From an uncultured virus (IMG/VR IMGVR_UViG_3300021197_001448) (Duplodnaviria > Heunggongvirae > Uroviricota > Caudoviricetes), in the IMG/VR virus record IMGVR_UViG_3300021197_001448: a stretch of 36,719 nucleotides of DNA; one strand, written 5' to 3'. Numbering within the stretch: the stretch's first letter is position 1; every line of letters begins with the position of its first letter. A model generated the notes under the pieces. It made no database searches. It was not told the DNA's origin and saw only the letters and a list, made by a program, of their open reading frames with translations. This document shows positions 1 through 36,719 of this stretch, one piece after another. The translations under genes were made by a program, and so were the position numbers.

Positions 1-240
1 CCATCCACTCTTTTCCCAGGGTTTCTTTGGAAGGATTGAAAATGCGTTAAATTCTTGGTTGAGTTGTGACCAAACCTTGCGACCAAAGATCGCTTGGTAA
101 GTACCAGCAGTTGAGGACATCAACGGTGAATCAGCCTTGAGTAAGTCTGTTCCACTGTATGCCCATGCGTTTGTTCCTGCGCCAGCACCATAGTAAAGGC
201 GTTCCATATCTTCAATTGTTCTGATATATCCTTGTGTCAT
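1..240 (-). CDS. Major capsid protein, N-terminal part (runs off the window edge)
   Basis: Not in the ORF track. My translation from ATG at 240 is MTQGYIRTIEDMERLYYGAGAGTNAWAYSGTDLLKADSPLMSSTAGTYQAIFGRKVWSQLNQEFNAFSILPKKPWEKSGW, open to the edge. GGAGATGA RBS upstream. Lies directly downstream of the prohead protease; the 'VWSQLN.E.NAF..LPK.PW..SGW' segment resembles capsid proteins of euryarchaeal tailed viruses. Confidence 0.8.
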   Translation of the reverse strand, partial: MTQGYIRTIEDMERLYYGAGAGTNAWAYSGTDLLKADSPLMSSTAGTYQAIFGRKVWSQLNQEFNAFSILPKKPWEKSGW

Positions 241-267
241 CTTAGTCATCTCCATTTATTTTGAGTT

Positions 268-20172: not shown

Positions 20173-20410
20173 ATTGTCGAACTGCTAATGCAAAAGTAAA
20201 GAGCAAACCAAATGTTCCCAAAAGAATTTGAGTCGATGATAAAGTTGAACCTCTCCAAATCAATACTACAAAGGAAGCAAGCATAAAAGAAATGATAAAG
20301 ATCATCGTTGCGCTTTCAACAATCATCTTGCTTGGACTCATCAGTTGGATCGTGGTGTCATAATGACTCTGAGTGTATTGTTGGTTGTGATCTGGTTTTT
20401 GTTGATTCAT
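20156..20410 (-). CDS. Small membrane protein, 2 TM helices
   Basis: Hydrophobic stretches ATMIFIISFMLASFVVLIW and ILLGTFGLLFTFALAV. Confidence 0.75.
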   Translation of the reverse strand: MNQQKPDHNQQYTQSHYDTTIQLMSPSKMIVESATMIFIISFMLASFVVLIWRGSTLSSTQILLGTFGLLFTFALAVRQFASFR

Positions 20411-23734: not shown

Positions 23735-24247
23735 ATGAGCGAAGTAAATATGATTGAAGCCGTACACGCACTTCGATCTTACAACGTAGCATTATCTGGA
23801 ATGACTAATGATCCGCAAAGTGTTACTTCATGGATTACACGCTATGCTGAAAACGATGGCAAAGCACCTAATTTTTGTAAGGATGCAGCCATTGGTTTAT
23901 TGTGCCATTTAGGAAACCCGATCTATAATTATGGAAACCTCAACAACGAACAGCAACAATGGTCTGGAATATACAGTAGTGCTGAACAGGCTTTAATTGA
24001 AGAAGCAAATTGGCAAAACAGCCAGTTATCTCAATCGACTCAAACTTCTTTTGCTCGCTTATTCAGTTCAGATATTCAATGGATTCAACTTTACAGCCAA
24101 TCTCTTCAATATCCTTCTGATGTTTCGTTTGAGTATTTTGTGAATAAAATAATCACCGATTTCCGAGCCTGTCAAGGTTCAAATGGCGCAGGTGGAATCT
24201 CTCATTCTCCAATGACTCCGCCAATCATGCAACAACAAATACCTTAG
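23735..24247 (+). CDS. Hypothetical protein; the only credible + strand gene
   Basis: 170-aa ORF filling a gap with no - strand gene; convergent stop overlap at 24244-24247. Confidence 0.7.
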   Translation: MSEVNMIEAVHALRSYNVALSGMTNDPQSVTSWITRYAENDGKAPNFCKDAAIGLLCHLGNPIYNYGNLNNEQQQWSGIYSSAEQALIEEANWQNSQLSQSTQTSFARLFSSDIQWIQLYSQSLQYPSDVSFEYFVNKIITDFRACQGSNGAGGISHSPMTPPIMQQQIP

Positions 24248-26538
24248 AACAAAGTACGTTGCGCTGGTGGAGGATTCTTACGCCTTTCCCATGCTGATTG
24301 AAATGCGTCTTGATCTATGTTTGCCATAGCCATCATTTCACCTACTTTGACTCGGCCTCCAGAAACAGGAGTTGCTCTTTCTAAACGTTGAAGTGGCTCA
24401 ATATGGAAACCTGCTTCTTCCAACGGTTTGACAATTGAAGGATGCATTGAATTGAAAACTGTTGTTGGGATCCCTCTATTTTTTGCATCGATCAATTGCT
24501 CGATCAAGAGTTTCTGTTCTGGTTCAAGGAAATGGTTGTGTGCGCCTTGTTCTCCAAAATAAGGGCTATCAACCAAAAATTGACTCGTTTCGGGATTCAT
24601 TTTATCTTTTACATCATCGTAAAAATCAAATGCGCTTCCAGTACGATATTCCCAATCTTTCATTGCTTCATGCCATCTTGTTAAATCGTGAATTCCGCCT
24701 TGACCTTTCATTCTTTGAGGTCTTGCCAAATTACCACCTGGCTTCATTAAACGATAACTCCCTGCACTTGGAGATCGGCCAGTATATTTGTATTCTCCCT
24801 TATCATTGTAACCTGCGAGTCCCGCATCTATGAATTGATTGAAGAAGGCATCTTCTATCGGTTGATTAACTGGGGTTTTTGCCCCCCTTGCCCCTGGTGA
24901 TACGGAATACGGAATATCCAAAGAAGGCAACGCATTCGACGGTGCATATCGAACTAAACCGTTCATTCCCATTTGTTGAAGAATATAAAATTTAGAATTC
25001 ATATCATCAATGTCTTGATCAGTTGCCATTCCTAATCTTTCCTTTTCTCTCAACTTGTTAAAGTCATGACGTAATTTGTAAAAGTGCGCTGGAAGAAACG
25101 TTTCGTTGCCTTCGCCAAATAAAGTTGCCAATTCGGGAGTGATTTCTCCCAAATTCATCATTCCCAATTCATCATGTGGGAAAAGAATGGGATCGCCTTC
25201 TTTTAGGTTCTGTGCAGTAACGTCTATTTTCATCGGTTTTTCGATTATACCTCTATTCAAACGTCCTAAATCGGGATTGATGTCATTCAATATGGCTCTT
25301 TTTGCTTGATATTGATGGGATAGCCCCCCCATCCCTGCAAAATTCTCATAGGTATCTCTCTCGCCAAGAACATCACGTATAGCCCTCATGATGTGACGAT
25401 ACATAGGTGCATTTTTTACACCTTGAATTGGCAAAACGGTTTTCAACGGTTCGCCTTCCTTATATCCTCTGAGCGCAGGAGTCGGCATCTTTTCAAGACT
25501 CATTTCATCTCGTATTTGTATGCTCTCTAACGCTCTGCGAATAACATCGCCTGATAAAGCAGAATCCCAAACTTCTCTTCCTGCGCCCGTCAAATCACGT
25601 GGATCAAAATACAATCCATGCGTTCCAGTTGAAATACCTCTCGAAACCGCAGGTTGATCATAATCGCCAGTTAAACTCAATGGAACAGGAACGCCTTCAT
25701 AGCGATAGCCCGTTTCTGGATGTTCCCATTCAACATATCGGCCTCCTTTGCTTTGACGTGCAAGTTCAGGTGCTTGCTGACCTGCGAAGTGTAGCGGTAT
25801 TCTGAGCAATGGATCTACTGAACCAGATACTCTGTGACCACGTGCGGAACGGAATGGCAAAGCAAAATCATCACGGTATTTTCGATTTTCCATTTTCCAT
25901 TTTTTATTGTGTGGCAATGACTTATCTTCCAAATCATAAACCTCATATGCAAAACGAGGGGCTTCGTACAGATCATCACCATACTTCCATGATAACATAC
26001 TGTCGCCAAAGTCGTTTCGATCTAAAACCAAATCATCAGTCATACCAAGAATTTGTTGAGGTGTTTGTTCCCCTCCCATCATTGCATTTAATTCCGCCGC
26101 ACTCAAATCTCCTGCCGTCCACATATGAGCAGTTCGATTTGCTTTTCGATCCCGATCAGGATTGCCAAGAAATGCTGAACGTTGCGCCTTTTCATCTAAT
26201 CTAAAGAAAGGATTATTGATCGGCAATACGTTGGAAATCGCTATTGGTTTTTGACCTCTCATAACGCTTAATGCGCCAGTATTTGGTCTAATTTCCCCAG
26301 TAGATTTTATACGACCTGGATTTAAATGCAAACTCGTAGAGTCGATGTTACGGAATGCCTCTATGTTGTGTGGTCTGCCCACTCGAAAATTGGTCATTCG
26401 GTCTAAATTGAGATTACCTGCTCTATCTTCAAGAGGATATGCCGTAACGCCATCAAGAGAAACGGTTCCCATTTTAGGCCGATCACGCTTATTGCGCTTG
26501 AACTGGTCATACCAAGCCTTCTCAAATATGTCTGTCAT
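24244..26538 (-). CDS. Leader-bearing two-domain protein: unknown N-terminal domain plus a Dam-like (D12-class) DNA adenine methyltransferase
   Basis: LPIQGVK (motif X), YENFAGMGGL (I), AILNDINPDL (II), FLVDSPYF (IV, a DPPY variant). N-terminus MTDIFEKAWYDQFK. Confidence 0.7.
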   Translation of the reverse strand: MTDIFEKAWYDQFKRNKRDRPKMGTVSLDGVTAYPLEDRAGNLNLDRMTNFRVGRPHNIEAFRNIDSTSLHLNPGRIKSTGEIRPNTGALSVMRGQKPIAISNVLPINNPFFRLDEKAQRSAFLGNPDRDRKANRTAHMWTAGDLSAAELNAMMGGEQTPQQILGMTDDLVLDRNDFGDSMLSWKYGDDLYEAPRFAYEVYDLEDKSLPHNKKWKMENRKYRDDFALPFRSARGHRVSGSVDPLLRIPLHFAGQQAPELARQSKGGRYVEWEHPETGYRYEGVPVPLSLTGDYDQPAVSRGISTGTHGLYFDPRDLTGAGREVWDSALSGDVIRRALESIQIRDEMSLEKMPTPALRGYKEGEPLKTVLPIQGVKNAPMYRHIMRAIRDVLGERDTYENFAGMGGLSHQYQAKRAILNDINPDLGRLNRGIIEKPMKIDVTAQNLKEGDPILFPHDELGMMNLGEITPELATLFGEGNETFLPAHFYKLRHDFNKLREKERLGMATDQDIDDMNSKFYILQQMGMNGLVRYAPSNALPSLDIPYSVSPGARGAKTPVNQPIEDAFFNQFIDAGLAGYNDKGEYKYTGRSPSAGSYRLMKPGGNLARPQRMKGQGGIHDLTRWHEAMKDWEYRTGSAFDFYDDVKDKMNPETSQFLVDSPYFGEQGAHNHFLEPEQKLLIEQLIDAKNRGIPTTVFNSMHPSIVKPLEEAGFHIEPLQRLERATPVSGGRVKVGEMMAMANIDQDAFQSAWERRKNPPPAQRTLF

Positions 26539-27662
26539 TATGCGCCCTCACCCCGATTAAGCCTTATTTTTCCAACTTGTGGTTTGTTAATATACCCCAC
26601 ATTAGGAACTTTACTATCCATGCAAGCCAAGCAATTTGCGCTCTCTTGTGGACCGTATGTTGCGTTTGGAACGCAAGCCTTTGCTGGTGAGTTAGGGTCA
26701 TCTTTCGGACAAAAATGTATATCTCCGACTATTGCTGAATCAGGCAGCATTTCTGAATCAACAAGCCATTTATCCCATACTTCCGACCTCAATGTTTGAG
26801 GATGATCTAAAACCCTTCTTTGAGATTGATTCAAAACACCGTGTTCTCCGACAACATTCCGATTCCATTCGTCATCAATAGTTTGATTTCTAAACGGCAT
26901 CGACATTCTTAATCTAACATTTGGAGGCAACGCATCATGAGCATAACCTCTTGCTGACAAGACTTTATTCACCATTCCAAACTCTCTTGTTGGAATCCAA
27001 TGGATCACATCGGGATTCAAAGTCGCCATATCAAGAAGCATAGCCAAATGTTCAGGTGAATGCAAATCTCCCGAATCAAACATACGGAATACGGGATAGC
27101 CACCATGCGATTCTGTGGGGATTTGTGAAGCCAATTGAGAATGATAACCGATTGGGTCTTGCAGCATATCATTGTAAGACTTTAGTTGATTTCGAGTTGC
27201 ATTGTTGCTATTGTAAGTGAATCCCTCAGCATAGCAACCATAGCAAGTTGAATCTCTCTTGTCTTTCAAGTGTTTTCCAGTCGCACATAGTTCTGTTGGA
27301 TATGATGTTGAGCGTGAAGGCATTGTTGAAGTATCAGCCAAATAAACAGGCAATCGTCTATCCGAATCTGCCATTGGATTGCTAAAATCAATTTTAGGAA
27401 GGCTTCTTGCTGCGTGATGTTGCGCCAATAAGTTCTCATTCAAAGGATAATTCATTTTGACTTTGCGAAGATCGGTCATTTTTCTTTCGCCTTCTGGCGA
27501 GTTGATGTAATTTTGGACTTCAAGCCCTCCTTTTGGGAACTTTTCATTTGCGTAAAGCAATTCATTCCACGTGAAATCCATTGGGTCAATTTGCATTCTC
27601 CCTCCTGGACCTTCAATCAAGGGCATTTTTAACAATGACCAAGCGGTTTCAAAACAATTCAT
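26538..27662 (-). CDS. Leader-bearing GP88-like (radical-SAM-related, Cys-rich) protein
   Basis: C.TG..L......CYGCYA.G, FRMFDSGDL, HWIPTRE, PPNVRLRMS and C-terminal CP...C..C motifs. N-terminus MNCFETAWSLLKMP. Confidence 0.7.
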   Translation of the reverse strand: MNCFETAWSLLKMPLIEGPGGRMQIDPMDFTWNELLYANEKFPKGGLEVQNYINSPEGERKMTDLRKVKMNYPLNENLLAQHHAARSLPKIDFSNPMADSDRRLPVYLADTSTMPSRSTSYPTELCATGKHLKDKRDSTCYGCYAEGFTYNSNNATRNQLKSYNDMLQDPIGYHSQLASQIPTESHGGYPVFRMFDSGDLHSPEHLAMLLDMATLNPDVIHWIPTREFGMVNKVLSARGYAHDALPPNVRLRMSMPFRNQTIDDEWNRNVVGEHGVLNQSQRRVLDHPQTLRSEVWDKWLVDSEMLPDSAIVGDIHFCPKDDPNSPAKACVPNATYGPQESANCLACMDSKVPNVGYINKPQVGKIRLNRGEGA

Positions 27663-27671
27663 GCGATCACC

Positions 27672-28997
27672 TCAATTATAATCCATCAACCTGCGTTGGA
27701 GGTTGTTACCTACTACTGATCTGCCTATTGCTCTTGCTACTGGAGGGGCAACTGCATTACCAATTATTTGATCAACAGCAGCGATTGATTTTGTGTTACC
27801 TGATCGGGGATTAAATTTACGCCAATACTGTCCTTCTGCTGGTGATAGATCGTAAGTAGGCCGCCCACCTTGAAGCATCATGATTTCTTGGGGGGTCAAA
27901 TACCGATTATACATATGTGATGGTTTGTTATGTGTAATTCCAGTTACGGATGAAGTGAGTGGTTTTCTGTGTAAGAAAGCCGTTCCAGGACCTCCTTCTT
28001 GACTTGGATGCTTTGAATTTATGTTAAGCCAAGAAGCACCCCCTCTACCTGGATTCTTACCACCTGATTGTGAAATAAAACCTTGACTCATAAGGTAATC
28101 AAGAACTTCTTGACTAATTCGACCTTTATCTCTATATTCAGTCAATTTTGCTAATTTGTTTGGCCTGTTTTCTTCTTCTTCTCGTTGAAGATGTGGCAAA
28201 AAATCAAGCACAGTAGGGTTAGGTAGCCTACCTGGTTTTGATTTGTAAGTTGAATTGTAATGGGTAGGTTCTGCATTCCATCCTTCACCGATAAATGTTC
28301 GGCCTCTTGTAGTGGGTGCGCCAAAGTTAATTGCATCTAATTTTGGATTACTCGTCAATAGCCCCATTACTTTTTTCTTAAAGGGAGGGGTGACATATTT
28401 ATCGAGAAAATGCGGATTTTCTTTTAGATATTTAGCAACATCTGGTGCTTCTTCAAGTGACCATGATGCCAAGTCTATATCGGGGTGTTTTATCATCTGT
28501 TCTACTGTGTAGAGAGCATCTCCAATCAAAGGCATAGCAGCGACTCTATCTTCTTCTATTTCTTCGGGTGTTTTAGCCGCAACACTCGATCCTTGTCGTT
28601 GCGCTCTTGTAAATGCTTGACACGGAGGCGATGCGTGAAAGTGAATCTTTTTTCCTTGAGAGATGTCGGCGTAATGCTCAACCATGTCATCTGGATGTCT
28701 TTGGCCTTGATCTCTGCCAAGATAACCGCTTAGGACTTCACCTTCTTTTTGATTTAATAATCTGACATCGTTTGCAGGTTTCCATGCATCAATAGTTGAT
28801 AAGATCGGGATTCCTGCTGATCGAAAACCTTCATCAGCAAACCCTCCACCTGAATACTGCGTAATTGCGCCAAAATCATCTCGCAGTGGCATTTGCGGGA
28901 ATCTGCGTAGATATTCTTCATCCATCACTTTTAGATCTTCGGGGGTCATCTTCTCAATCATAGTCGAGTAGGCTTCCTGAAATAAAGCCTCGCCCAT
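27672..28997 (-). CDS. Leader-bearing DNA (cytosine-5) methyltransferase
   Basis: YSGGG (I variant), ASPPCQAF (IV), LEEA (VI variant), TTRGRTF (VIII), RYLTPQEIMMLQG (IX), IIGNAVAPPVARAIG (X). N-terminus MGEALFQEAYSTMIEKM. Confidence 0.85.
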   Translation of the reverse strand: MGEALFQEAYSTMIEKMTPEDLKVMDEEYLRRFPQMPLRDDFGAITQYSGGGFADEGFRSAGIPILSTIDAWKPANDVRLLNQKEGEVLSGYLGRDQGQRHPDDMVEHYADISQGKKIHFHASPPCQAFTRAQRQGSSVAAKTPEEIEEDRVAAMPLIGDALYTVEQMIKHPDIDLASWSLEEAPDVAKYLKENPHFLDKYVTPPFKKKVMGLLTSNPKLDAINFGAPTTRGRTFIGEGWNAEPTHYNSTYKSKPGRLPNPTVLDFLPHLQREEEENRPNKLAKLTEYRDKGRISQEVLDYLMSQGFISQSGGKNPGRGGASWLNINSKHPSQEGGPGTAFLHRKPLTSSVTGITHNKPSHMYNRYLTPQEIMMLQGGRPTYDLSPAEGQYWRKFNPRSGNTKSIAAVDQIIGNAVAPPVARAIGRSVVGNNLQRRLMDYN

Positions 28998-29085
28998 GCA
29001 TGACGGATTGCACTATCAGTCAAGAACTTATCTTAATCAGTAAGTGTATAGAGAGACTTTAATTATAAAAATACATTTCCAAAAC

Positions 29086-29178
29086 TGGCGAGCAAGTAGC
29101 GGCTCCTGTTTATCACGTAGTAACTCTCAATCAACGCACGTTTGGATTTTGGGCGATCTGAACAATGCTTGCTCGCCA
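29086..29178. ncRNA. Candidate ~93-nt RNA closed by an 11-13 bp terminal stem
   Basis: TGGCGAGCAAG (29086-29096) and CTTGCTCGCCA (29168-29178) form a perfect inverted repeat in an intergenic gap; TATA-like TTTAATTATAAA at 29058-29069. Confidence 0.4.
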
Positions 29179-29181
29179 CCC

Positions 29182-30114
29182 TCAAATGACTCTCCAGTTT
29201 AATCTATCTTGGAATTCTGAAAATGCGCCTGTTGGATCGTTTGCTTTTTCTCCCCACGAAGTATCATAAGTTCTCAATTCTTCCATAGGAATGTCCTGTG
29301 CGCTCAAACCTTTTGGCAAATCAGGGATAAGACGACCCATACCTGGAACCAATTCACGCCCAAAGAAAAATGATGGAGGCACAGCATTACGCCTTCGTCC
29401 AAAGGAAGCAGGTATTCCATACCCACCAATTGCCTTTCGATGTTCTTCGTTAAAATTCGGATCAAACAGATCAGGATAATCTTCTTGTAAATGCGGGAAA
29501 AGAGCATATCTATTGCTATCTAAGCCCATCAAACGCCTCATATCTTTCCCATAAATCATTTCACGATCATAATTATATTGCGGTTTTTTCAACTTTTCAT
29601 TCATTGTTGATGAAATCATATAAGCGGGAATAAATGGCGCATTCATTCTTCGCAACGCTTCAACACGATGATTTCCTTCACCAATCATCCATCCACTCGG
29701 ATTAAAATTTAGTTGAGGTATCGCAACATTTCCAACAGAATCTTTTTGTTCTGCTGCTTTGTCATAACGTTTCAGCCCTTCCGCTTTGGCATCTAAACCT
29801 CGATCTTCATCTGAGCGATGAACCCACCAATCGGAGTTCCTACCTAACATTCCATGTTCCATGATGCTCTCCATCAACCGTTCCACTTTTTGATCACCGA
29901 TTCCAAAATTAGATGGAGATTTGCCTTGAAAATGTCGTGTAGGTGGTAACATTTCAGTCGGAACAAAATCTAACGAAGATGAGGCTCCTGCATAACCTCG
30001 TTTGTTCTTACCACGTCCTCCTAAGACTTCATATAAAGGAGCATAGATTTCTTCCCACATCCCCTCATCGATCTTGACGATGGAATCCCATGCCTGTTCA
30101 AACACATCAGACAA
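29182..30114 (-). CDS. Leader-bearing ParB/Srx-like nuclease-domain protein
   Basis: VERLMESIMEHG...IGEGNHRVEALRRMNAPFIPA. Start reassigned to TTG 30114 (GGGAGG RBS), giving MSDVFEQAWDSIVK. Confidence 0.7.
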   Translation of the reverse strand: MSDVFEQAWDSIVKIDEGMWEEIYAPLYEVLGGRGKNKRGYAGASSSLDFVPTEMLPPTRHFQGKSPSNFGIGDQKVERLMESIMEHGMLGRNSDWWVHRSDEDRGLDAKAEGLKRYDKAAEQKDSVGNVAIPQLNFNPSGWMIGEGNHRVEALRRMNAPFIPAYMISSTMNEKLKKPQYNYDREMIYGKDMRRLMGLDSNRYALFPHLQEDYPDLFDPNFNEEHRKAIGGYGIPASFGRRRNAVPPSFFFGRELVPGMGRLIPDLPKGLSAQDIPMEELRTYDTSWGEKANDPTGAFSEFQDRLNWRVI

Positions 30115-30730
30115 TGTAATTCCTCCCGCAATCAAACGGACAGGAAATACCACCTAATAGTCGATTATACCTCACTTCTTCTCCTGGTGAGATGGATCGT
30201 TGGCAAACAACACAGTTACCTGGATAACGAGCAGGGAATCGACCCGACATGGCTTTGTTTAGATCTTCTTCTGAAACCTTAGCATTAGGTCGCCTCAATT
30301 CACCACTTTCAAGTCGCTTCATGGCTTCTTCGACTGGTTTTCCTCTGAACGTGCGCCTTGTAGATCGGGTTTCATCTTTTGTTGATTGGAGTTCATGCCT
30401 TTCTTTCATCTCAGGGTCTGCTTCCCAATTTTCTCTACGCTTTTCTTGATCGCGTACGATCCTTCTCGCATTCTCTTCTGATCCTGGTTCATACCGTCGA
30501 AGTGCATTCTTCTCACGTTGTTTCATTCGAGAGGCTTCGTTTGCCCAATAGTGAACAATGCCTCTTGTTACTGGAATCCCCTCTTCGTTGAACAATCTCC
30601 AGATTGCTGCTTGACTCATGCCCTCAGATGCGAGTTGTGATATGCGCTTGATGTCATCTTCTGTGAGCGTATATCTTCGATCTGCTGCTGGCATTTTGAG
30701 CAAATCCCACGCTCGGTCAAAGGCGGTCAT
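30107..30730 (-). CDS. Leader-bearing HTH protein with a C-terminal Zn-ribbon-like domain
   Basis: LASEGMSQAAIW...VTRGIVHYW (HTH-like); ARYPGNCVVC..SISPGE...C..C. N-terminus MTAFDRAWDLLKMP. Confidence 0.7.
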   Translation of the reverse strand: MTAFDRAWDLLKMPAADRRYTLTEDDIKRISQLASEGMSQAAIWRLFNEEGIPVTRGIVHYWANEASRMKQREKNALRRYEPGSEENARRIVRDQEKRRENWEADPEMKERHELQSTKDETRSTRRTFRGKPVEEAMKRLESGELRRPNAKVSEEDLNKAMSGRFPARYPGNCVVCQRSISPGEEVRYNRLLGGISCPFDCGRNYIV

Positions 30731-31443
30731 TGTCCTCTCTCCCTCAAACGCCTTACAAAATCATGTGGTTTTGAACCACCAATCAAAATATCATTTGTTG
30801 TGACTTTATCCCAAAGCGGTTGTTCACTGTATAAATCTTCAAGGGCTTCATACAATTCTCCTGAATGCACTTCATCGCCTCGTAAATCAGGATAAATTGA
30901 TTCCCAGTGATCATGACCGCCTTTTTTGGGAGGTAAGAAAATCCTATCCCACGCTTCGTTTTCATCGCCTTCATCATCGTAATGTTCTTCCTCAAAATCA
31001 TCCATTTCCTCATCATACAGATCTGAATCAATGATATTTTGAATGATTTGGGCTACGTGTTTATCAGGCAATTTTTGTGAATAAGGCGGGACAACGCCTT
31101 CTTCGTCATGAAAAGCCACACGGCCTCTTTCAATTGCGGCTGAAAGACCATTCCCCATGTATTCTTCATCTCCCGGAACATCAATGTATTCATCCTTTGG
31201 CGCAGTTGCCATGTGTAATTCGGGATAATGCACATTTGCATCAACAAAAGGCGAACCCTGATAATCGTTGCGTGGACCAAACATTGCGTAGGCCAAAGCC
31301 TTTGATTTGTGCGGAGTCCAATATCCTGTGTCTTTGTCACCAGTCCTTCGACCTTGATACAAATAATCAGTCTGCAACCCGCCATCCTCCACAACAAAAG
31401 GCATTTTGAGCAGATCCCAAGCGGTGTCAAATGGCTTAGGCAT
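30727..31443 (-). CDS. Leader-bearing acidic protein, possible ADP-ribosyltransferase-like fold
   Basis: YLYQG...GYWTPHKSKALAYA...DEEY pattern. N-terminus MPKPFDTAWDLLKMP. The fold call is tentative. Confidence 0.5.
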   Translation of the reverse strand: MPKPFDTAWDLLKMPFVVEDGGLQTDYLYQGRRTGDKDTGYWTPHKSKALAYAMFGPRNDYQGSPFVDANVHYPELHMATAPKDEYIDVPGDEEYMGNGLSAAIERGRVAFHDEEGVVPPYSQKLPDKHVAQIIQNIIDSDLYDEEMDDFEEEHYDDEGDENEAWDRIFLPPKKGGHDHWESIYPDLRGDEVHSGELYEALEDLYSEQPLWDKVTTNDILIGGSKPHDFVRRLRERGQ

Positions 31444-31480
31444 AAATTACGCAAGTCCCATCAAAACATAAAGGCATTCC

Positions 31481-31511
31481 AAAGAAAAAAAAAATTAAGC
31501 GAGATTTCTCT
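31481..31511 (-). terminator. Oligo-T archaeal-type terminator preceded by a short hairpin
   Basis: GAGAAATCTC followed by TTAATTTTTTTTTTCTTT on the - strand. Confidence 0.5.
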
Positions 31512-31713
31512 AATTAAGCATGGTTTCGAGCGTAGCCCGATCCCCTCAAAAAAAAAACACGAAGATCAACGTTGATAACTAAAACCACATGATTCGACGG
31601 ATTCCAATTCTGGTCTAATTCCAGATCTATAATTGGCTAATCCATGCTTCATGAGCATACGAAACAAACGTTGCCTTCGCTTGAGCAAAGCCTCTTGCAC
31701 ATTAACTGCGAGG
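31485..31713 (-). ncRNA. Candidate structured ncRNA (about 220 nt) between a TATA box and a T10 terminator
   Basis: Multiple nested stems (see findings); TTTAATTTATAA at 31720-31731; T10 runs at 31548-31557 and 31485-31494. Confidence 0.5.
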
Positions 31714-31745
31714 ACGTGGTTATAAATTAAACCTTCTCAGCCCTG

Positions 31746-32486
31746 TTAGGGTTGTTTGTCCTTCTTTTTTGGGGCTTCAATCCATTCTGGATTAACAGGT
31801 ATGGATGGATCGTATTTGTGAATTTCATATGATTTACATTCGGGACATTTTCGCACACGCTCGCCATGCCACCCTACGAATGTTGAAGTTGGACCTGTTA
31901 ATCCACATGAATAACATTCCAGTGGAGATGAGCCGCCGAATATCTCCATTATTTCATCAATCTTTGCGGCAACTGGATTGTCAAATTGAGAATTGTCAAT
32001 AAACTCATCGTCATTGGAATCATCGTCAATAGACTTCATCAAGTCCCAAGCGGTGTCGAAGGCGGTCATTGGCTCACCTGCCAATTTTTCTTGCCAATCA
32101 TCGCTATGGGCTTCATCAATATGAAAATCGCCTATATCGTCTATTTTTGATTCGGGGTTGGGGATGAAAATGCGAGCGTATTTTGGGTCTTTTGGATTCT
32201 TTCTTTTTCTTGATAGGTTTTGTAAATCTTCTTGATAATCAGCCATAGCCTGTTCAGCACCGACATATTCTCCCTTTTCATCGGCCAAACGGTTTGTGCC
32301 AATGTGTGTCCTCTCCATCTGTTGTGGTTTGTCGTTATTCGGCATAAAAACCTCAATCGGTTCAGCAACATGAAACCAACGCTGAAATCTATTGAAATCA
32401 TCATCTCCTTGATCGTATGCTTCTTGAAGTGTTCTTGCGGTGGCATCCTCTTTGCCTTTGCGCCAAGCCGTGTCAAATGCCGTCAT
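31746..32486 (-). CDS. In-frame fusion of two leader-bearing cassettes; the second has a Zn ribbon
   Basis: MTAFDTAW at 32486 and again MTAFDTAWDLMK at 32069 (own GGTGA RBS); CYSC...CPEC in the second unit. Confidence 0.7.
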   Translation of the reverse strand: MTAFDTAWRKGKEDATARTLQEAYDQGDDDFNRFQRWFHVAEPIEVFMPNNDKPQQMERTHIGTNRLADEKGEYVGAEQAMADYQEDLQNLSRKRKNPKDPKYARIFIPNPESKIDDIGDFHIDEAHSDDWQEKLAGEPMTAFDTAWDLMKSIDDDSNDDEFIDNSQFDNPVAAKIDEIMEIFGGSSPLECYSCGLTGPTSTFVGWHGERVRKCPECKSYEIHKYDPSIPVNPEWIEAPKKKDKQP

Positions 32487-32899
32487 TCCAAATCACGCAT
32501 CCGCCGTTCATATTCGGGAAAGTCGATGCTGCTTGCTGTTCCATCAAAAGGATCAATCAAAGTTTCATCTTGGCGTATTGCATCTTCTAAATTGAATGGC
32601 TTTCCATCACCAAAAAGACCCTGAGTTTCCATCGCATCATTTATTCTTTTATCTACAAAAGGATGAATACAACGGCTACAATGATTAGGAATCCCTTCAA
32701 CAAGATTGTTAATTTCGCTGAAACATTCAATGCATTCAGACGGGAAATTTACACTTGGATCAGGATCGAGTTCTTCACCACTCATTGAAACCAAGTGCCT
32801 ATTTAGTTCAGCAATGCCTTGTTTTTCTTTCTCAGAGAAAAAACGAAAATGCCCCGATGACATTTTGAGCAAATCCCAAACGTCATCAAATGCCGTCAT
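32483..32899 (-). CDS. Leader-bearing small Zn-finger protein
   Basis: MTAFDDVWDLLKM from ATG 32899 (ATGA overlap with the upstream stop); CIEC...CSRC. Confidence 0.7.
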   Translation of the reverse strand: MTAFDDVWDLLKMSSGHFRFFSEKEKQGIAELNRHLVSMSGEELDPDPSVNFPSECIECFSEINNLVEGIPNHCSRCIHPFVDKRINDAMETQGLFGDGKPFNLEDAIRQDETLIDPFDGTASSIDFPEYERRMRDLE

Positions 32900-33267
32900 G
32901 GTTGCCCTCTCCAATTAGGAAGCCCTTGCCAGGACTCATTCAATTCATGAATACCATCAATTGCCCATTCCTCTTCATTTGGTATTCCTGAGCCTTCACA
33001 TGAGGTGCAAGTTCCTAAAGAAATCGTGTAGCCTTGTGCTTTATTTTCACGTTCTTTGTAGGGATAAATTGTTTTACCATTCTCCAATAAGTCCATTATT
33101 TCATCAAGACTCAATGGTGGCGAGCCATCACCAGTCATGTGAGTCGGTCTGGTAAAAGTGATTTCGCCAGTTCCCCTGCAATTAGGACAAATCCCTCTTT
33201 CATACATCTCTATTTCATCAGGCTTGCGTTCTTTCATGAAATCCCAAGCCGTGTCAAATACCGTCAA
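32896..33267 (-). CDS. Leader-bearing protein with DnaJ-type CxxCxGxG Zn-finger repeats
   Basis: TTG start gives MTVFDTAWDFMK; CPNCRGTG and CTSCEGSG repeats. Confidence 0.7.
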   Translation of the reverse strand: MTVFDTAWDFMKERKPDEIEMYERGICPNCRGTGEITFTRPTHMTGDGSPPLSLDEIMDLLENGKTIYPYKERENKAQGYTISLGTCTSCEGSGIPNEEEWAIDGIHELNESWQGLPNWRGQP

Positions 33268-34133
33268 AACCACACCGCCTTGAATCTATTCTTTGTTTCG
33301 TTGTATTTGTTTTTTACGGCAATCCTAATCGTTGGACTCTTAATCTTGTGCGCTAACTTGCGAGCCGCTTTGAGATCGGACAACTTAACTCCACAGGAAA
33401 TGCCCTGTTGATTACACCACTTGACCAAATCCTCAGTTGCGAGGTTAGCACCAGATCCCTGAACAAACGGACAACCACCTAATCCCCCTATGCTCGCATC
33501 GAATTCTCGAACACCAAGTTCATATCCTGTTGAAACGTTATCCATCAGATGTTTTCCGTGATGTAAATGTAGAGATATGAATTCTGTCAAATAACGAGTT
33601 GCCCGTACAGATACTGCGATTTGGAACGGATCAGCAGTTCCTTTGGTATCACACAAAACAATCCGATCTCCAAACTTCAAACCTTCTTTGACCGCTTTTA
33701 CTAATTCATCAATCGTTGCTTCAAACGCTTCTGAAATATACACTCGAATACAATCTCTTGGGATCCCTTTCAACGATGTTTCATAGTTGGCGATTATCTG
33801 TTCCTGTGTTAAACCATAGTTAGCAAGGTTAAATGAATTCATGGGTGAAAAGAAAATGTTGAATTGCTTCATCCCACATTCCATTGCCCGATCAAGGCCA
33901 CGCTTGTTTGGGATGAGAACAGAGAATCCAGTTTTGTCATCGAAAGCATCACACACATCTTTTGCATCGGCCATGTTAGGAACTGCCTTTGGATGAACGA
34001 ATGAGGCAACCTCTATTCGAGTAAGGCCAGCATCACGTAGCAACTTGATGAGTTCGATCTTATCTTCTGTTGATGGGACGTGCGGCAGGTTTTGTAGCCC
34101 ATCACGTGGTCCGACCTCAAAAATCCTAATCAT
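33264..34133 (-). CDS. hmgL: Hydroxymethylglutaryl-CoA lyase family protein (DRE-TIM metallolyase)
   Basis: EVGPRDGLQN, IEVASFVHPKAVPNMAD, LCDTKG, LHLH and FDASIGGLGGCPF...NLATEDLV motifs. Confidence 0.9.
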   Translation of the reverse strand: MIRIFEVGPRDGLQNLPHVPSTEDKIELIKLLRDAGLTRIEVASFVHPKAVPNMADAKDVCDAFDDKTGFSVLIPNKRGLDRAMECGMKQFNIFFSPMNSFNLANYGLTQEQIIANYETSLKGIPRDCIRVYISEAFEATIDELVKAVKEGLKFGDRIVLCDTKGTADPFQIAVSVRATRYLTEFISLHLHHGKHLMDNVSTGYELGVREFDASIGGLGGCPFVQGSGANLATEDLVKWCNQQGISCGVKLSDLKAARKLAHKIKSPTIRIAVKNKYNETKNRFKAVWF

Positions 34134-34948
34134 CAATATCCCTCCAACCAGGGGCTTTTGCCGTCAATTTGAACCGTCTTAGGATTATCGGAATAAGGCT
34201 CAAGTTCTTCCAAGTAACCGTAAAAACTTTGCATCAATCCGCCATAGTCTGATTCTCCAGGGTACTCGTATTGACGATCTCGGCCAAGAACATCTAACAT
34301 ACGAGATGCTGGCAATTGTATCTTCCACTTGTCTAAATCCTCTTGAAGTATTTCACCGACTGTTTGTTGAGGATAGTCTTTACCTGGAATGTTTGGTGCA
34401 TTAGGCCACCAATCATGAGGACTCGTATGTTCCATATCGGCATCATAAAACCTCCAATTCCCTGTTTGATCTTGACCCCAATTAGCACCGACCCGATCTC
34501 CAAAGGCATGGTTTAACAAAATATCAGCAATGCCCAATCTATGCCGACCTTTCCGACCCACCCCCGTATCAACTGCGTGTTGGTTAAGGCGTGGCTGAAC
34601 CAAATACTCGCCCTGAACATCTAACTCAGATGATACAGGAAAGCCCATTTCTTCCATAATTTGAGGAATATTTTGGGGATAACCTGTTCGCCACATTAGT
34701 TCACGTGAGTCATCTTCAACCCTCCGAGCAAAATATCCGTGAGGTATTTTTACCACAAATCTTTCATCATTTGGATGAGGAAGTGTTGTAAGAGAATTTC
34801 CTTGCCCCATAATATCATCTAAACTCTCTTCACTTATCAAGCGTCTTTGTTCTGATTCGGACAACCAGGGTAAATCCTCAGCAATGCTTCTCCAGTTAGG
34901 AGTCCATTCTTTAGCGATAGAATCCCAAGCGACAGCAAAAGAACTCAT
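34133..34948 (-). CDS. Leader-bearing atypical kinase (PI3/4-kinase/HipA-like catalytic motifs)
   Basis: MGQGNS Gly-loop, FVVKIP, HAFGDRVGANW catalytic loop, RFYDAD. N-terminus MSSFAVAWDSIAK from ATG 34948. Confidence 0.65.
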   Translation of the reverse strand: MSSFAVAWDSIAKEWTPNWRSIAEDLPWLSESEQRRLISEESLDDIMGQGNSLTTLPHPNDERFVVKIPHGYFARRVEDDSRELMWRTGYPQNIPQIMEEMGFPVSSELDVQGEYLVQPRLNQHAVDTGVGRKGRHRLGIADILLNHAFGDRVGANWGQDQTGNWRFYDADMEHTSPHDWWPNAPNIPGKDYPQQTVGEILQEDLDKWKIQLPASRMLDVLGRDRQYEYPGESDYGGLMQSFYGYLEELEPYSDNPKTVQIDGKSPWLEGY

Positions 34949-35880
34949 TGCTCTTTCCTCTCCCATGCTTTTTGATCTAATGTGTGATTATAGAACCAAT
35001 CGAGATAATCAAGGCGAGAAAATTGTCTAACAAATTCATCCCATTCTTCCATTGTCATTCCTTCATGCCCTATTGCATATGGCCTTATATTTTTAGGAGG
35101 GATTCTTTCTTCTATCATATAATGCCCAAAATCAGAACCCAGATCATATCCGTGTTTACGTGGATCAACCCACTCACTATCGCGTGGAACATCAAATCCT
35201 AAAATAGCAGGGGCTTTCCCCGACTCTTCAAATCGATCATCAGCATACCTTTCAGCCTCTTCTTGATTTACAGCACCAAAAGACCATTCATCCAACCCCT
35301 CGCTCATAATGCTTGGAACATATTCTGCTAATGTTCCATGCCATAGATCGGGTTCACGGTATGCCTTCTCCATCAAATCATCACGGCCAATCCAAGATCG
35401 GTGGCCTTTGTCGTTATAATCAGAAAACCTGTGATGTAAAGCCTCTACAAATCTTTCAGCATCAGATGATTGGGCATCTGACTCATACATCTTTTCACCA
35501 TGATGGTCTTGAACAATCTGCGTAATTAAATCCATTAAAGCAGTAGCATATCCTCGCTTTCGATATTTCCGATCAGTACCCATCTCAGTAGGATGGATAA
35601 AAGAATTATAATCTCCCCTATCTTCATGAAATTTATCTGTGTCAAATTGAATAAAAGATCTCCATGTTGGAAAACCTCTTTCATTTTCACCACGATCTAT
35701 GAACGCCCCTCCGTATTTGCCACCAGGTTGTGAATCTCCGATGCCACCAGTGATCGGGAGAATCTCGCCTGTGACTGGATCTTGAAATTCTCCTGTGTAT
35801 TGTGTTCCATCCTCGTTTCTTGTAACCGAATGCGGAACAATGGGCATCTTGAGCAATTCCCACGCTTTCTCAAAAGACAT
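34945..35880 (-). CDS. Leader-bearing GNAT acetyltransferase plus ADP-ribosyltransferase-like two-domain protein
   Basis: TDRKYRKRGYATALM (acetyl-CoA-binding motif A) and QSSDAERF; then LWHGT....SIMSEGL...AERYA...ERIPPKNI (ART/Tpt1-like). N-terminus MSFEKAWELLKMP. Confidence 0.7.
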   Translation of the reverse strand: MSFEKAWELLKMPIVPHSVTRNEDGTQYTGEFQDPVTGEILPITGGIGDSQPGGKYGGAFIDRGENERGFPTWRSFIQFDTDKFHEDRGDYNSFIHPTEMGTDRKYRKRGYATALMDLITQIVQDHHGEKMYESDAQSSDAERFVEALHHRFSDYNDKGHRSWIGRDDLMEKAYREPDLWHGTLAEYVPSIMSEGLDEWSFGAVNQEEAERYADDRFEESGKAPAILGFDVPRDSEWVDPRKHGYDLGSDFGHYMIEERIPPKNIRPYAIGHEGMTMEEWDEFVRQFSRLDYLDWFYNHTLDQKAWERKEQ

Positions 35881-36719
35881 CAATAGCCCTCCAAAAATTC
35901 AGCCCTGCCATCAATCAAAACACTTTGAGGGTTATCTGAGTATGGCTCAATCTCAGTCAATAGATCGAACAATTGAGGATGATGTTTTCTTTCAAAGCCA
36001 TATTTGTCAAGTGTGTTCAACAACGGACTTGCTGGCAACTGTATGCCATAATCGTCTAATCCTTGTTGTAGGACTTCTCCTTTCGTCTTTGTCGTCTTTG
36101 TCGTCTTTGCCCCTGCCCATGAATCTGTTCCCTCAAAGATGCTGTCACTCGGCCACCAATCATATGTGGATTTGTAATCCATATCTGGATCTATGAATCT
36201 GTAATTACCAGTCTGATCAATACCAAAGTTCGAGGGGTATCGATCACCAAAAGTGTGATTCAACAACTTATTTGTAACATCATCATTTGGCCTCTTATTC
36301 TTTCGATTCCTTCTCAACGATTGAGCATATGTCGAAGGTTCAACGTATGGTTGAACCATATACCTGTTATCGACATTCAGTTCTGATGCAATCGGATAAC
36401 CATAACTTTCTAAAATCGAAGGAAGAGGTTGCCCAACTTGGATCTCACGTCCTGTCGGCTTACCCATTCTCCAATTGAAAATTCTTTCCCCCTTATCGGC
36501 ATCACTCTCAGTCCACGATTCACTATTTTTTCGTGGTAATTTTATGACAAATTTATCATCATAGGGGTGTTCAAAAGTGTCAAAGGATCCACCCGATCCA
36601 AGATAACTGGGAAGCAAATCGAAATCATTATTCTCACGGTTGTTATATCCGTGAGCGATTTCATGCCAGTCTAACTTAGGCAGATTCCTGGCAGTTTCAC
36701 GCCAGTTAGGAGTCCACTC
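35880..36719 (-). CDS. Atypical kinase, paralogue of 34133-34948 (5' end beyond the window)
   Basis: The frame is open to the window edge (EWTPNWRETARNLP...); LGSGGS, FVIKLP, HTFGDRYPSNF, RFIDPD motifs. Confidence 0.7.
   Translation of the reverse strand, partial: EWTPNWRETARNLPKLDWHEIAHGYNNRENNDFDLLPSYLGSGGSFDTFEHPYDDKFVIKLPRKNSESWTESDADKGERIFNWRMGKPTGREIQVGQPLPSILESYGYPIASELNVDNRYMVQPYVEPSTYAQSLRRNRKNKRPNDDVTNKLLNHTFGDRYPSNFGIDQTGNYRFIDPDMDYKSTYDWWPSDSIFEGTDSWAGAKTTKTTKTKGEVLQQGLDDYGIQLPASPLLNTLDKYGFERKHHPQLFDLLTEIEPYSDNPQSVLIDGRAEFLEGY

What the first reader, a model, noticed from the sequence alone, without database searches (positions are those of the whole stretch)
24244..35880. Cargo polyproteins: K-sites sit at domain junctions
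Seen: DLMEK|AY (about 35359-35376) lies between the GNAT and ART-like domains. MSLEK|MP (about 25484-25500) lies between an unknown domain and the Dam-like domain. DLNK|AM (about 30248-30262) lies between the HTH region and the Zn ribbon. Outside this span, SILK|AD (about 3121-3141) directly precedes the ligase-like domain. Inference: one leader carries several enzymes into the head, where they are cut into pieces small enough to eject.
Basis: inference. Interest (0 to 1): 0.7.

Follow-up and report, generated by a model that had tools for sequence, protein, structure and literature searches.

The report
Leader-tagged phage cargo fused at lysine sites
A marine virus tags about a dozen enzymes with one short N-terminal leader that probably loads them into its capsid, and where two such enzymes are fused the join keeps the leader's lysine cutting site.

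Summary
All four motifs are at the stated coordinates, and each lies at a module boundary defined without reference to the motif.

- **312-aa protein:** both halves occur elsewhere as separate leader-bearing genes. The leader lysine of the stand-alone second half aligns with K173.
- **764-aa protein:** K350 marks a 98%-to-50% identity breakpoint. In relatives this position holds a full internal leader, or a gene end or start.
- **207-aa protein:** 16 of 17 homologues end at K159.
- **1152-aa protein:** K666 is invariant in 49 of 49 homologues and opens a low-confidence linker before a ligase-fold domain.

The capsid protein's N-terminus ends in the same L-L-K|A motif. The S78 protease-scaffold is rich in such sites. 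Leader-bearing proteins are twofold depleted of them.

My best reading is a T4-like capsid-targeting leader, cut after Lys by the prohead protease. Fusions of leader-tagged modules would then behave as polyproteins. Cleavage and packaging are inferred, not shown. The 'small enough to eject' idea has no support. I rate it a new variant of a known kind.

The parts
34945..35883 (-). 312-aa fusion: leader, then a GNAT-like module (aa 1-~170), a vestigial leader with K173 (motif nt 35359-35379, K codon 35365-35367), then an ART-like module (aa 174-312).
   Evidence: aa 4-173 align to five stand-alone leader-bearing genes that end at ...R-D-D-L. aa 171-311 align to stand-alone leader-bearing genes (L011 1956-2432, 55% identity; P0119, 97%). 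Their leader K|A-Y aligns to K173|A-Y.
24244..26538 (-). 764-aa fusion: leader, then an N-domain of unknown family (aa ~20-340), a degenerate internal leader ending K350|M-P (motif nt 25483-25503), a Dam-like D12 methyltransferase, and a C-terminal leader-like motif A-F-Q-S-A-W-E-R-R-K.
   Evidence: PF02086 at aa 383-534. Identity to the G002 orthologue is 346/352 up to P352, then 185/372. Both halves occur as stand-alone genes, and relatives carry full internal leaders at this position.
30107..30730 (-). 207-aa protein: leader, an HTH-like module (aa 13-~157), K159|A-M (motif nt 30248-30265), then a 48-aa Cys4 zinc-ribbon-like tail.
   Evidence: 16 of 17 homologues lack the tail and end at query residues ~150-163. 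The 48-aa tail alone matches phrog_1581 (E 4e-8); the first 159 aa do not.
1669..5127 (-). 1152-aa conserved head-module protein with no N-terminal leader. K666|A-D (motif nt 3124-3141) precedes a ligase-fold domain (aa ~676-915). K914|E-G (codon 2386-2388) follows that domain, ahead of a variable Gly/Ala linker.
   Evidence: K666 is invariant in 49/49; P3 is L or I in 49/49; P1' is A or S in 49/49. AF2 pLDDT is below 50 at 666-675 and 917-979. Foldseek matches ATP-dependent DNA ligases at E 2e-7. K914 is K in 88%.
31746..32486 (-).
   Evidence: aa 131-246 equal stand-alone leader-bearing genes in G002 (84% identity) and G003 (58%).
26538..36719 (-). The other genes of the cargo cluster. N-terminal leaders start ORFs 26538-27662 (GP88-like), 27672-28997 (C5 methyltransferase-like), 29182-30153, 30727-31443, 32483-32914, 32896-33273 and 34133-34966. 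ORF 33264-34136 (HMGL-like) has no leader. ORF 35880-36719 runs off the window.
   Evidence: 11 of 13 minus-strand ORFs of 120 aa or more in 24244-36719 begin with F-[DEQA]-x-[AV]-[WY]-...-K. Codons for the conserved residues vary synonymously.
268..1626 (-). Prohead protease (Peptidase_S78, aa 29-183) fused to a scaffold-like C-terminal part. It is the presumed enzyme that cuts after Lys.
   Evidence: PF04586 scores 39.8 bits against a cut-off of 21. PHROGs call it a head maturation protease. It holds 11 [LIVMF]-x-K-[AMSG] sites against 2.1 expected. Six of the seven sites examined keep the Lys in the 61%-identical G004 orthologue.
1..255 (-). N-terminal 85 aa of the major capsid protein (SU10_MCP-like). 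It has a leader-like ...N-A-W-...-D-L-L-K40|A-D, K codon 136-138.
   Evidence: 100% identical to the first 85 aa of the 394-aa capsid protein of G002. The motif is also present in G001 and G004. PF17236 matches.

Best explanation
Window 24244-36719 is a cluster of cargo genes of an uncultured marine tailed virus of about 100 kb.

**The leader.** Each product starts with a leader of about 12 residues, F-[D/E]-x-A-W-x-[L/I/V]-[L/V/M]-K, usually followed by M-P. I infer that it acts like the T4 capsid targeting sequence. It would bring the protein into the assembling prohead, where the virus's S78 (HK97-type) prohead protease removes it by cutting after the Lys. The protease would need a hydrophobic residue at P3 and Lys at P1.

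**The fusions.** Because every cargo gene begins with the same peptide, in-frame fusions of neighbouring modules leave a whole or partial leader at the join, including its Lys site. The multi-domain proteins of 312, 764, 246 and 207 aa would therefore be cut in the head into their single modules. In effect they are polyproteins. The leaderless 1152-aa head protein uses the same kind of site on both sides of its ligase-fold domain.

**Shown:**
- the shared leader;
- the module boundaries;
- the descent of the junction sites from leaders;
- their conservation;
- the site statistics.

**Inferred:** packaging, cleavage, and delivery into the host.
For: 1. **Shared leader.** It starts 11 of 13 ORFs in the span, with synonymous codon variation, so selection acts on the peptide. 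The same leader occurs 114 times in 23 metagenome loci: 104 N-terminal, 8 internal and 2 C-terminal. It also occurs in three IMG/VR contigs.
2. **Junctions are leaders.**
   - The stand-alone ART-like proteins P0119 (97% identity) and L011 1956-2432 (55%) carry a full leader whose K|A-Y-R-E-P aligns to the internal K173|A-Y-R-E-P.
   - Relatives of the 764-aa protein have a full internal leader at the junction (P0084, P0086), or end there (P0079, P0081, P0083), or start there with their own leader (P0078, P0092, P0093).
   - The 246-aa protein has two full leaders.
3. **Boundaries defined independently.** These are a 98.3%-to-49.7% identity breakpoint at P352, 16 of 17 homologues ending at K159, and pLDDT below 50 at 666-675 between confident domains.
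4. **Conservation.** K666 is invariant in 49 of 49 homologues down to 36% identity, with a variable stretch just before it.
5. **Link to head maturation.**
   - The capsid protein's N-terminus ends ...D-L-L-K|A-D.
   - The S78 protease-scaffold has 11 sites against 2.1 expected, and K178 lies at the end of the S78 domain.
6. **Avoidance of the site.**
   - Mature parts of 98 leader-bearing ORFs hold 27 [LIVMF]-x-K-[AMSG] against 54.1 expected (z -3.8).
   - They hold 18 [LIVMF]-x-K-[DEQNT] against 67.9 expected (z -6.4).
   - 143 ORFs without a leader hold 252 against 160.
   - The Arg, reversed and polar-P3 controls are not depleted.
Against: - No virion, proteome or cleavage data exist for this virus.
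- The 312-aa fusion is very recent, since a 97%-identical stand-alone form exists. D-L-N-K|A-M is seen only in the window and in sequences at least 93% identical to it. Those two sites may therefore be passive leftovers rather than selected features.
- Some proteins carry a leader-like motif only at the C-terminus, such as the L039 146-aa ORF, P0081 and P0083. There, cutting after K would remove only 2-4 residues. This fits a binding motif better than a removable leader.
- Within the window's own cargo proteins, depletion of [LIVMF]-x-K is mild. For example, the 374-aa protein has 7 against 4.6 expected.
- The AF2 model of the 312-aa protein is too poor (mean pLDDT 50.9) to show a linker at K173.
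- The site pattern was defined after seeing the sites.
Confidence: 0.6

Rival explanations
1. Passive fusion scars. The junction motifs are real remnants of leaders left by gene fusion, but they are not cut and not under selection. The fused proteins would stay whole, whether or not the N-terminal leader works as a packaging signal.
For: A stand-alone ART-like protein is 97% identical to the fused copy, so that fusion is recent. The zinc-ribbon fusion is seen only in the window and in sequences at least 93% identical to it. The fused junction keeps only the last residues of the leader, D-L-M-E-K. This is consistent with a deletion between ...R-D-D-L and ...W-D-L-M-K-K, an inference.
Against: K666 is invariant in 49 of 49 homologues, next to a variable stretch. 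K|M-P at the 764-aa junction is kept in all 4 close homologues that span it, at 50-75% identity. The site pattern is twofold depleted elsewhere in leader-bearing proteins, so something reads it.
Confidence: 0.2
2. The leader is not a capsid-loading and cleavage signal. It would be a tag for another partner, for example the virus-encoded thermosome-type chaperonin, with the Lys conserved for binding.
For: A Cpn60_TCP1 chaperonin gene lies next to the leader-gene cluster in G004 and in L039. C-terminal copies of the motif exist. The reference list of PMC10052503 cites a paper whose title says the T4 head protein N-terminus directs proteins to GroEL (title seen; the paper itself was not read).
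Against: The same motif ends the capsid protein's N-terminal stretch, and it is fivefold enriched in the S78 protease-scaffold. Depletion is specific to hydrophobic-x-Lys and is not seen with Arg. That pattern looks like avoidance of a protease, not of a chaperone.
Confidence: 0.12
3. Chance. Short L-x-K motifs are common and merely happen to lie near boundaries.
For: The six-position matrix gives modest scores of 1.1 to 6.6 bits. About 44 pattern matches are expected by chance in the window's 11,454 residues.
Against: In three proteins the only internal match is at the boundary. The individual chance values are 0.014-0.053. There is direct homology to bona fide leaders, and K666 is invariant.
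Confidence: 0.03

Closest known systems
Phage T4 capsid targeting sequence (CTS) on internal proteins, removed by the prohead protease. Mullaney & Black 1996, as described in passages of PMC9024508. That T4 Alt, an ADP-ribosyltransferase, is packaged and processed is recalled, not checked.
   Same: A short N-terminal peptide is shared by unrelated proteins and ends in the head protease's cleavage motif. The cargo includes enzymes that act on host or DNA early in infection.
   Different: There is no sequence relation. The protease here is S78 (HK97-type), and the inferred cut is after Lys. T4's cut after Glu is recalled, not checked here. This virus has a dozen or more cargo genes per genome, arranged as a cassette array. 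Internal and C-terminal copies of the leader exist.
Proteolytic maturation of head and ejection proteins in giant phages SPN3US and phiKZ (PMC10052503, passages read).
   Same: Many head proteins are cut by the prohead protease at a short motif, and long propeptides are cut at several sites.
   Different: In SPN3US, all identified cleavages except the protease's own yield N-terminal propeptides (passage). Here the inferred internal cuts would separate two functional modules. The motif and the protease family also differ.
Phage P1 Dar system. The N-terminal 30 residues of DarB direct a reporter into the capsid (PMC9024508, abstract and section 3.3 passages).
   Same: An N-terminal packaging signal sits on an anti-restriction enzyme carried in the head. 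The cargo here also includes methyltransferase-like proteins.
   Different: In P1 the signal was described for one large protein and loading is stepwise through other Dar proteins. No shared leader family or junction sites were described in the passages read.
Viral polyproteins cut at domain junctions by a viral protease (general knowledge).
   Same: Multi-domain precursors carry the protease's motif between modules.
   Different: Here the polyproteins are sporadic, recent fusions of genes that are normally separate. Cutting would occur inside the prohead.
Encapsulin cargo-loading peptides, which load cargo into HK97-fold shells (abstracts seen in the listing).
   Same: A short terminal peptide loads diverse enzymes into an HK97-fold shell, and it can sit at either end or in fused forms.
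   Different: Encapsulins package no DNA. Their peptides are not removed by a protease and are unrelated in sequence.

Membership tests
T4-type capsid targeting sequence / protease-processed internal head proteins (functional class) | One short N-terminal peptide is shared by several otherwise unrelated proteins of the virus. | tested here: met
   11 of 13 ORFs in the span carry it. 104 N-terminal copies occur in 23 metagenome loci.
T4-type capsid targeting sequence / protease-processed internal head proteins (functional class) | The peptide ends in the cleavage motif that the prohead protease also uses on capsid and scaffold proteins. | tested here: inconclusive
   The capsid protein's N-terminus ends L-L-K|A-D, and the scaffold part has 11 sites against 2.1 expected. 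No cleavage data exist.
T4-type capsid targeting sequence / protease-processed internal head proteins (functional class) | The peptide is sufficient to load a foreign protein into capsids, and the cargo is present in virions. | not testable with these tools
   This needs expression, purification and proteomics.
T4-type capsid targeting sequence / protease-processed internal head proteins (functional class) | Homology to the T4 system: a T4-type prohead protease that cuts after Glu. | tested here: not met
   The protease matches Peptidase_S78 (PF04586). P1 of the inferred site is Lys.
Peptidase S78 (HK97-type prohead serine protease) | A Pfam PF04586 match above the gathering score. | tested here: met
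   39.8 bits against 21, at aa 29-183.
Peptidase S78 (HK97-type prohead serine protease) | Catalytic residues present. | not tested
   The residues were not mapped.
ATP-dependent DNA ligase / nucleotidyltransferase fold (aa ~676-915 of the 1152-aa protein) | Fold similarity to solved ligases. | tested here: met
   Foldseek against the PDB gives E 2.3e-7 and probability 1.00. The top 50 matches are all ATP-dependent DNA ligases.
ATP-dependent DNA ligase / nucleotidyltransferase fold (aa ~676-915 of the 1152-aa protein) | The canonical motif I, K-x-D-G-x-R, with a conserved catalytic Lys (the motif is recalled). | tested here: not met
   The sequence reads Q-K-x-P-x-G-x-R. K706 is Lys in 41 of 49, and Pro replaces Asp in 49 of 49. 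There is no Pfam hit.
D12 class N6-adenine DNA methyltransferase (aa 351-764 of the 764-aa protein) | A Pfam PF02086 match above the gathering score. | tested here: met
   30.6 bits (33.2 for the C-terminal part alone) against a cut-off of 22. D-P-P-Y or D-S-P-Y is visible in the alignment.
GNAT acetyltransferase (aa ~20-170 of the 312-aa protein) | A Pfam match above the gathering score. | tested here: inconclusive
   PF00583 scores 18.8-19.8 bits against 20.7. 2 of the 6 GNAT-like rows of A4 (8 rows scanned) give any GNAT hit at E 0.01 or better.
ADP-ribosyltransferase (aa 174-312 of the 312-aa protein) | A sequence or fold match to an ART family. | tested here: inconclusive
   No Pfam, PHROG or PDB sequence match was found. 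The protein atlas gives leads only: a cluster with PARP on 16% of members, and PTS_2-RNA rows under the bar. The AF2 model is too poor to search.

The most novel reading that the evidence does not exclude
These viruses, possibly magrovirus-like viruses of marine group II archaea, run a plug-and-play cargo system. Any enzyme becomes an injected effector once it acquires the 12-residue leader.

The leader would do three jobs: packaging signal, Lys-specific protease site, and repeated recombination joint. The last of these would shuffle, swap and fuse cassettes. That would explain the identity breakpoint exactly at K350|M-P and the internal and C-terminal leader copies.

Fused cassettes would be resolved into single enzymes inside the head. 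The arsenal would be methyltransferases, acetyltransferase-like and ART-like proteins and others, delivered together with the DNA.
Probability: 0.35. Interest if true: 0.8.

Novelty: new variant of a known kind. Interest (0 to 1): 0.66.

Why it matters
If the leader is a packaging and cleavage signal, it gives a sequence-only way to list the injected protein arsenal of an abundant group of uncultured marine viruses. It also offers a compact tag of about 12 residues for loading foreign proteins into an HK97-fold capsid.

The junction sites show how new multi-enzyme cargo arises by fusion while still being resolved into single enzymes. The depletion of hydrophobic-x-Lys in leader-bearing proteins is a general statistical signature. 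It could be used to predict protease-exposed virion proteins in other viruses.

My four literature searches returned no paper describing this leader family. They returned only the T4, P1, SPN3US and encapsulin analogues.

Tried and rejected
- **Close relatives of the 312-aa protein and the head module.** tblastn and blastn against GenBank phages found none. A single-protein scan of IMG/VR for the 312-aa protein also found none. The terminase's best named match is a Bacteroides phage at 27% identity.
- **Nearest held record.** G001 stops at window position ~23153 and lacks the cargo region.
- **Short position matrix (P4-P2').** It is too weak to call sites by itself.
- **AF2 of the 312-aa protein.** With an 8-row alignment the mean pLDDT was 50.9, which is unusable for boundaries or fold search.
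- **Complex prediction.** The whole protease-scaffold was tested with the first 45 residues of the 207-aa family. The result was no verdict, score 0.00.
- **Protein atlas search of the N-domain of the 764-aa protein.** No usable hit.
- **PDB sequence search with P0119.** Nothing below E 0.8.
- **phrog_1581 envelope.** It first seemed to span K159, which would have put the site inside a domain. Scanning the two parts apart showed the signal lies wholly in the 48-aa tail.
- **Size-limit idea.** 6 of 7 leader-bearing ORFs with mature parts over 450 aa have an internal site. That is about what chance gives at that length, and one ORF with a 582-aa mature part has none.
- **Literature on HK97 cleavage after Lys.** The search found nothing in the library, so that point stays recalled.
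- **Earlier findings of this scan.** None were available for this genome.


Full report
**What the window is.** All real genes lie on the minus strand.
- The left part is a head module:
  - the N-terminus of an SU10-type major capsid protein (1-255);
  - a Peptidase_S78 prohead protease with a long scaffold-like tail (268-1626);
  - a conserved 1152-aa protein (1669-5127);
  - the portal (7111-8913);
  - the large terminase (10278-11714).
- The span of the finding, 24244-36719, holds 13 ORFs of 120 aa or more. Eleven of them begin with the same peptide, F-[D/E/Q/A]-x-[A/V]-[W/Y]-x(2-5)-K, typically F-D-T-A-W-D-L-L-K followed by M-P.
  - The two exceptions are an HMGL-like gene with no leader and the last ORF, whose start lies beyond the window.
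  - The codons for the conserved residues differ synonymously between genes, so the peptide is what is conserved, not a DNA signal.
- The products are unrelated to each other. They include a D12 (Dam-like) and a C5 methyltransferase-like protein, a GP88-like protein, a weakly GNAT-like protein and several proteins of no known family.

**The observation.** The four motifs are at the coordinates given. Taken as motifs they are weak. A matrix for P4-P2' was trained on 22 leaders from two other contigs. It ranks them 5th of 307, 1st of 759, 2nd of 202 and 4th of 1147 positions. What makes them more than chance is where they lie, judged against boundaries defined without reference to the motif.

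**The 312-aa protein (34945-35883).**
- Residues 4-173 align to five separate leader-bearing genes in two other contigs, and all of these end at ...R-D-D-L.
- Residues 171-311 align to a separate 159-codon ORF of contig G002 at 55% identity. They also align to protein P0119, which is 152 aa and 97% identical.
- Both stand-alone forms carry a full leader. The end of that leader...L-M-K(K)|A-Y-R-E-P, aligns residue for residue with the internal D-L-M-E-K|A-Y-R-E-P.
- In G002 the stand-alone gene sits at the same place between the same neighbours.
- K173 is therefore the Lys of a leader that lost its first residues when two genes were fused.
- The domain names are less secure. GNAT is just below Pfam's cut-off. 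'ART-like' rests only on sub-threshold leads from the protein atlas. The AF2 model was too poor to use.

**The 764-aa protein (24244-26538).**
- Against its G002 orthologue, identity is 346/352 up to P352, 185/372 from 353 to 724, and 32/40 at the end. The mosaic breakpoint falls two residues after K350.
- A full HMMER search of 1.84 billion representatives found 26 relatives. I fetched 12 of them and aligned them with the window protein and the G002 orthologue.
  - P0079, P0081, P0083 and P0089 are the N-domain alone (341-369 aa). P0079, P0081 and P0083 end in a leader-like motif.
  - P0078, P0092 and P0093 are the Dam-like part alone, each with its own N-terminal leader.
  - P0084 has the N-domain, a full internal leader (F-E-D-A-W-S-I-V-K|W) and a Dam-like part.
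  - P0086 has the N-domain, a full internal leader and a different, GP88-like part.
- The window's A-L-E-S-I-Q-I-R-D-E-M-S-L-E-K|M-P is a degenerate, lengthened version of that internal leader. P0076 still reads F-Q-L-A-W-E-S-L... at the same columns.

**The 207-aa protein (30107-30730).**
- Of 17 homologues, 16 lack the C-terminal 48 residues and end at query residues ~150-163.
- Only P0102 (93% identical) keeps ...D-L-H-K|A-M and the Cys4 tail.
- A phrog_1581 match that first seemed to bridge the site lies wholly in the 48-aa tail when the parts are scanned apart.

**The 1152-aa protein (1669-5127).**
- It has 75 homologues.
- In an alignment of 49 sequences (the window protein and 48 homologues, down to 36% identity):
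  - K666 is invariant;
  - P3 is L or I in all 49;
  - P1' is A or S in all 49;
  - the stretch just before the site is variable.
- The AF2 model has mean pLDDT 76. Confidence drops below 50 exactly at 666-675, between a confident N-terminal region and a beta-rich domain. It drops again at 917-979, just after a second site, L-L-K914|E-G, which is kept in 88% of sequences.
- Foldseek matches the model to ATP-dependent DNA ligases at E 2e-7. However, motif I reads Q-K-x-P-x-G-x-R, K706 is Lys in only 41 of 49, and Pfam finds nothing. The name 'ligase-like' holds for the fold only.
- This protein has no N-terminal leader.

**More cases of the same kind.**
- The 246-aa ORF 31746-32486 has two complete leaders, and its second half is a separate gene in G002 and G003.
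- The 431-aa ORF 17460-18755 has an internal leader-like I-F-D-S-T-W-D-S-I-S-K|G. Its G004 homologue has a full internal leader there, followed by a 215-residue insert.
- P0118 is a zinc ribbon, an internal leader and the HTH module.
- In 23 metagenome loci I counted 114 leaders: 104 N-terminal, 8 internal and 2 C-terminal.
  - Some 'internal' ones may simply have an upstream in-frame start codon.
  - The strict pattern misses degenerate copies.

**Link to head maturation.**
- The capsid protein of G001, G002 and G004 begins with about 40 residues that end ...N-A-W-A-Y-S-G-T-D-L-L-K|A-D. The window's first 85 residues are identical to those of G002.
- The protease-scaffold protein carries 11 matches to [LIVMF]-x-K-[AMSG] against 2.1 expected. 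One of them, T-I-L-K178|M, lies at the end of the S78 domain. Six of the seven sites examined keep the Lys in the 61%-identical G004 orthologue.
- The mature parts of 98 distinct leader-bearing ORFs (22,413 residues) hold only 27 such matches against 54.1 ± 7.1 in shuffles (z -3.8). They hold 18 [LIVMF]-x-K-[DEQNT] against 67.9 expected (z -6.4).
- 143 ORFs without a leader from the same loci hold 252 against 160.
- The same patterns with Arg for Lys, reversed, or with a polar P3 are not depleted in the leader-bearing set.
- Leaving out the window and its near-twin G002 gives the same result, 18 against 40.5.
- Something therefore selects against hydrophobic-x-Lys specifically in leader-bearing proteins. 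Exposure to a protease with that specificity is the simplest explanation.
- Within the window alone the depletion is mild.

**How it most likely works.**
- The leader is probably an amphipathic helix. AF2 draws a helix at residues 2-11, at low confidence.
- I infer that it brings the protein into the prohead and is clipped after Lys by the S78 protease, as the T4 capsid targeting sequence is clipped by the T4 protease.
- Fusions between leader-tagged genes keep a cleavable join, so they are resolved into single modules inside the head.
- What is shown: the leader family, the module boundaries, the descent of the junction sites from leaders, their conservation, and the statistics.
- What is inferred: packaging, cleavage and delivery.
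- The 'small enough to eject' idea has no support. Predicted pieces reach 414-582 aa.

**Against this reading.**
- Two of the four sites occur only in very recent fusions and could be passive scars.
- Leader-like motifs that sit only at a C-terminus fit a binding tag better than a removable leader.
- A thermosome-type chaperonin gene beside the cluster in G004 and L039 leaves room for a chaperone-tag reading.

**Comparison with what is known.**
- The nearest analogues are the T4 CTS and the P1 DarB N-terminal signal (passages of PMC9024508).
- Another is protease processing of SPN3US head proteins. There, apart from the protease's own cleavage, only N-terminal propeptides are produced (passage of PMC10052503).
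- Encapsulin loading peptides are a further analogue (abstracts in the listing).
- The system here differs in four ways: the protease family (S78), the inferred Lys specificity, the cassette-like array of a dozen or more leader genes, and the internal leader copies at fusion joints.
- Four literature searches returned no description of this leader.
- That HK97's own protease cuts its capsid protein after a Lys is recalled. A search for it found nothing in the library.

**Likely host.** The genome size of about 100 kb, the marine sources and the thermosome gene resemble magroviruses (passages of PMC5434244). I made no comparison with named magrovirus sequences.

**Verdict.** This is a new variant of a known kind.

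Noticed in passing
L051 (G004:C1:90854-92293, + strand) and L039 1010-2590 (+): A Cpn60_TCP1 chaperonin gene lies beside the leader-gene cluster in two related contigs. It scores 494 bits in G004, and the L039 copy reads like a thermosome subunit. With ~100-kb marine contigs this resembles magroviruses of marine group II archaea (PMC5434244, passages). No comparison with named sequences was made.
   Followed up: partly
window 24244-24330 (C-terminus of the 764-aa protein), window 29182-29270 (C-terminus of the 323-aa protein), L039 2714-3154: Leader-like motifs occur at C-termini. Examples are A-F-Q-S-A-W-E-R-R-K|N-P-P... on the Dam-like protein (also in P0078, P0076 and P0080), Y-D-T-S-W-G-E-K|A-N-D on the 323-aa protein, and a 146-aa ORF whose only leader is C-terminal with four residues after the Lys. 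These are unexplained by a removable N-terminal leader.
   Followed up: partly
window 17460-18755 (-), compared with L017 10581-12437: The 431-aa protein outside the cargo cluster has an internal leader-like I-F-D-S-T-W-D-S-I-S-K|G before a Lys/Arg-rich part. The G004 homologue has a full internal leader there, followed by a 215-residue insert.
   Followed up: partly
window 33264-34136 (-): An HMGL-like (pyruvate carboxyltransferase / HMG-CoA lyase-like) gene, PF00682 at 89.6 bits, sits inside the cargo cluster but has no leader. It is 98% identical in G002. It may be a metabolic gene that is not packaged.
   Followed up: no
window 2386-2388 (K914 of the 1152-aa protein): A second conserved site, L-L-K|E-G (88% of 49 sequences), lies directly after the ligase-fold domain. 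A Gly/Ala-rich linker of very variable length follows. The domain is thus bracketed by two Lys sites.
   Followed up: partly
P0112, P0113 (homologues of window 30107-30730) and the frequent M at P1': The residue after the leader Lys is often Met, and two database homologues are called from that Met. This could be a gene-calling artefact or contig truncation. It could also hint at leaderless isoforms made from an internal start.
   Followed up: no
window 34133-34966 and 35880-36719 (-): Two paralogous proteins of ~277 aa (35-44% identity to each other's G002 counterparts) have no family match. Their sequences read like a Gly-rich loop followed by V-I-K, and a later H-x-F-G-D...N motif, which is kinase-like. 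This is read from the sequence only.
   Followed up: no
window 19182-19892 (-), 20407-21030 (-), 23735-24247 (+): There is a hemerythrin-like match just below cut-off (24.6 against 25.3 bits) in a 236-aa protein. A Met/Gly/Gln repeat protein is present. The only plausible plus-strand ORF of the window (170 aa) has no family.
   Followed up: no
L022 and L023 (G004 25000-44999; G002 50001-69779): Very large ORFs of 1600-2600 aa with almost no family matches lie beyond the capsid gene in the related contigs. One has a Laminin_G_3 domain. They are presumably tail or internal virion proteins.
   Followed up: no
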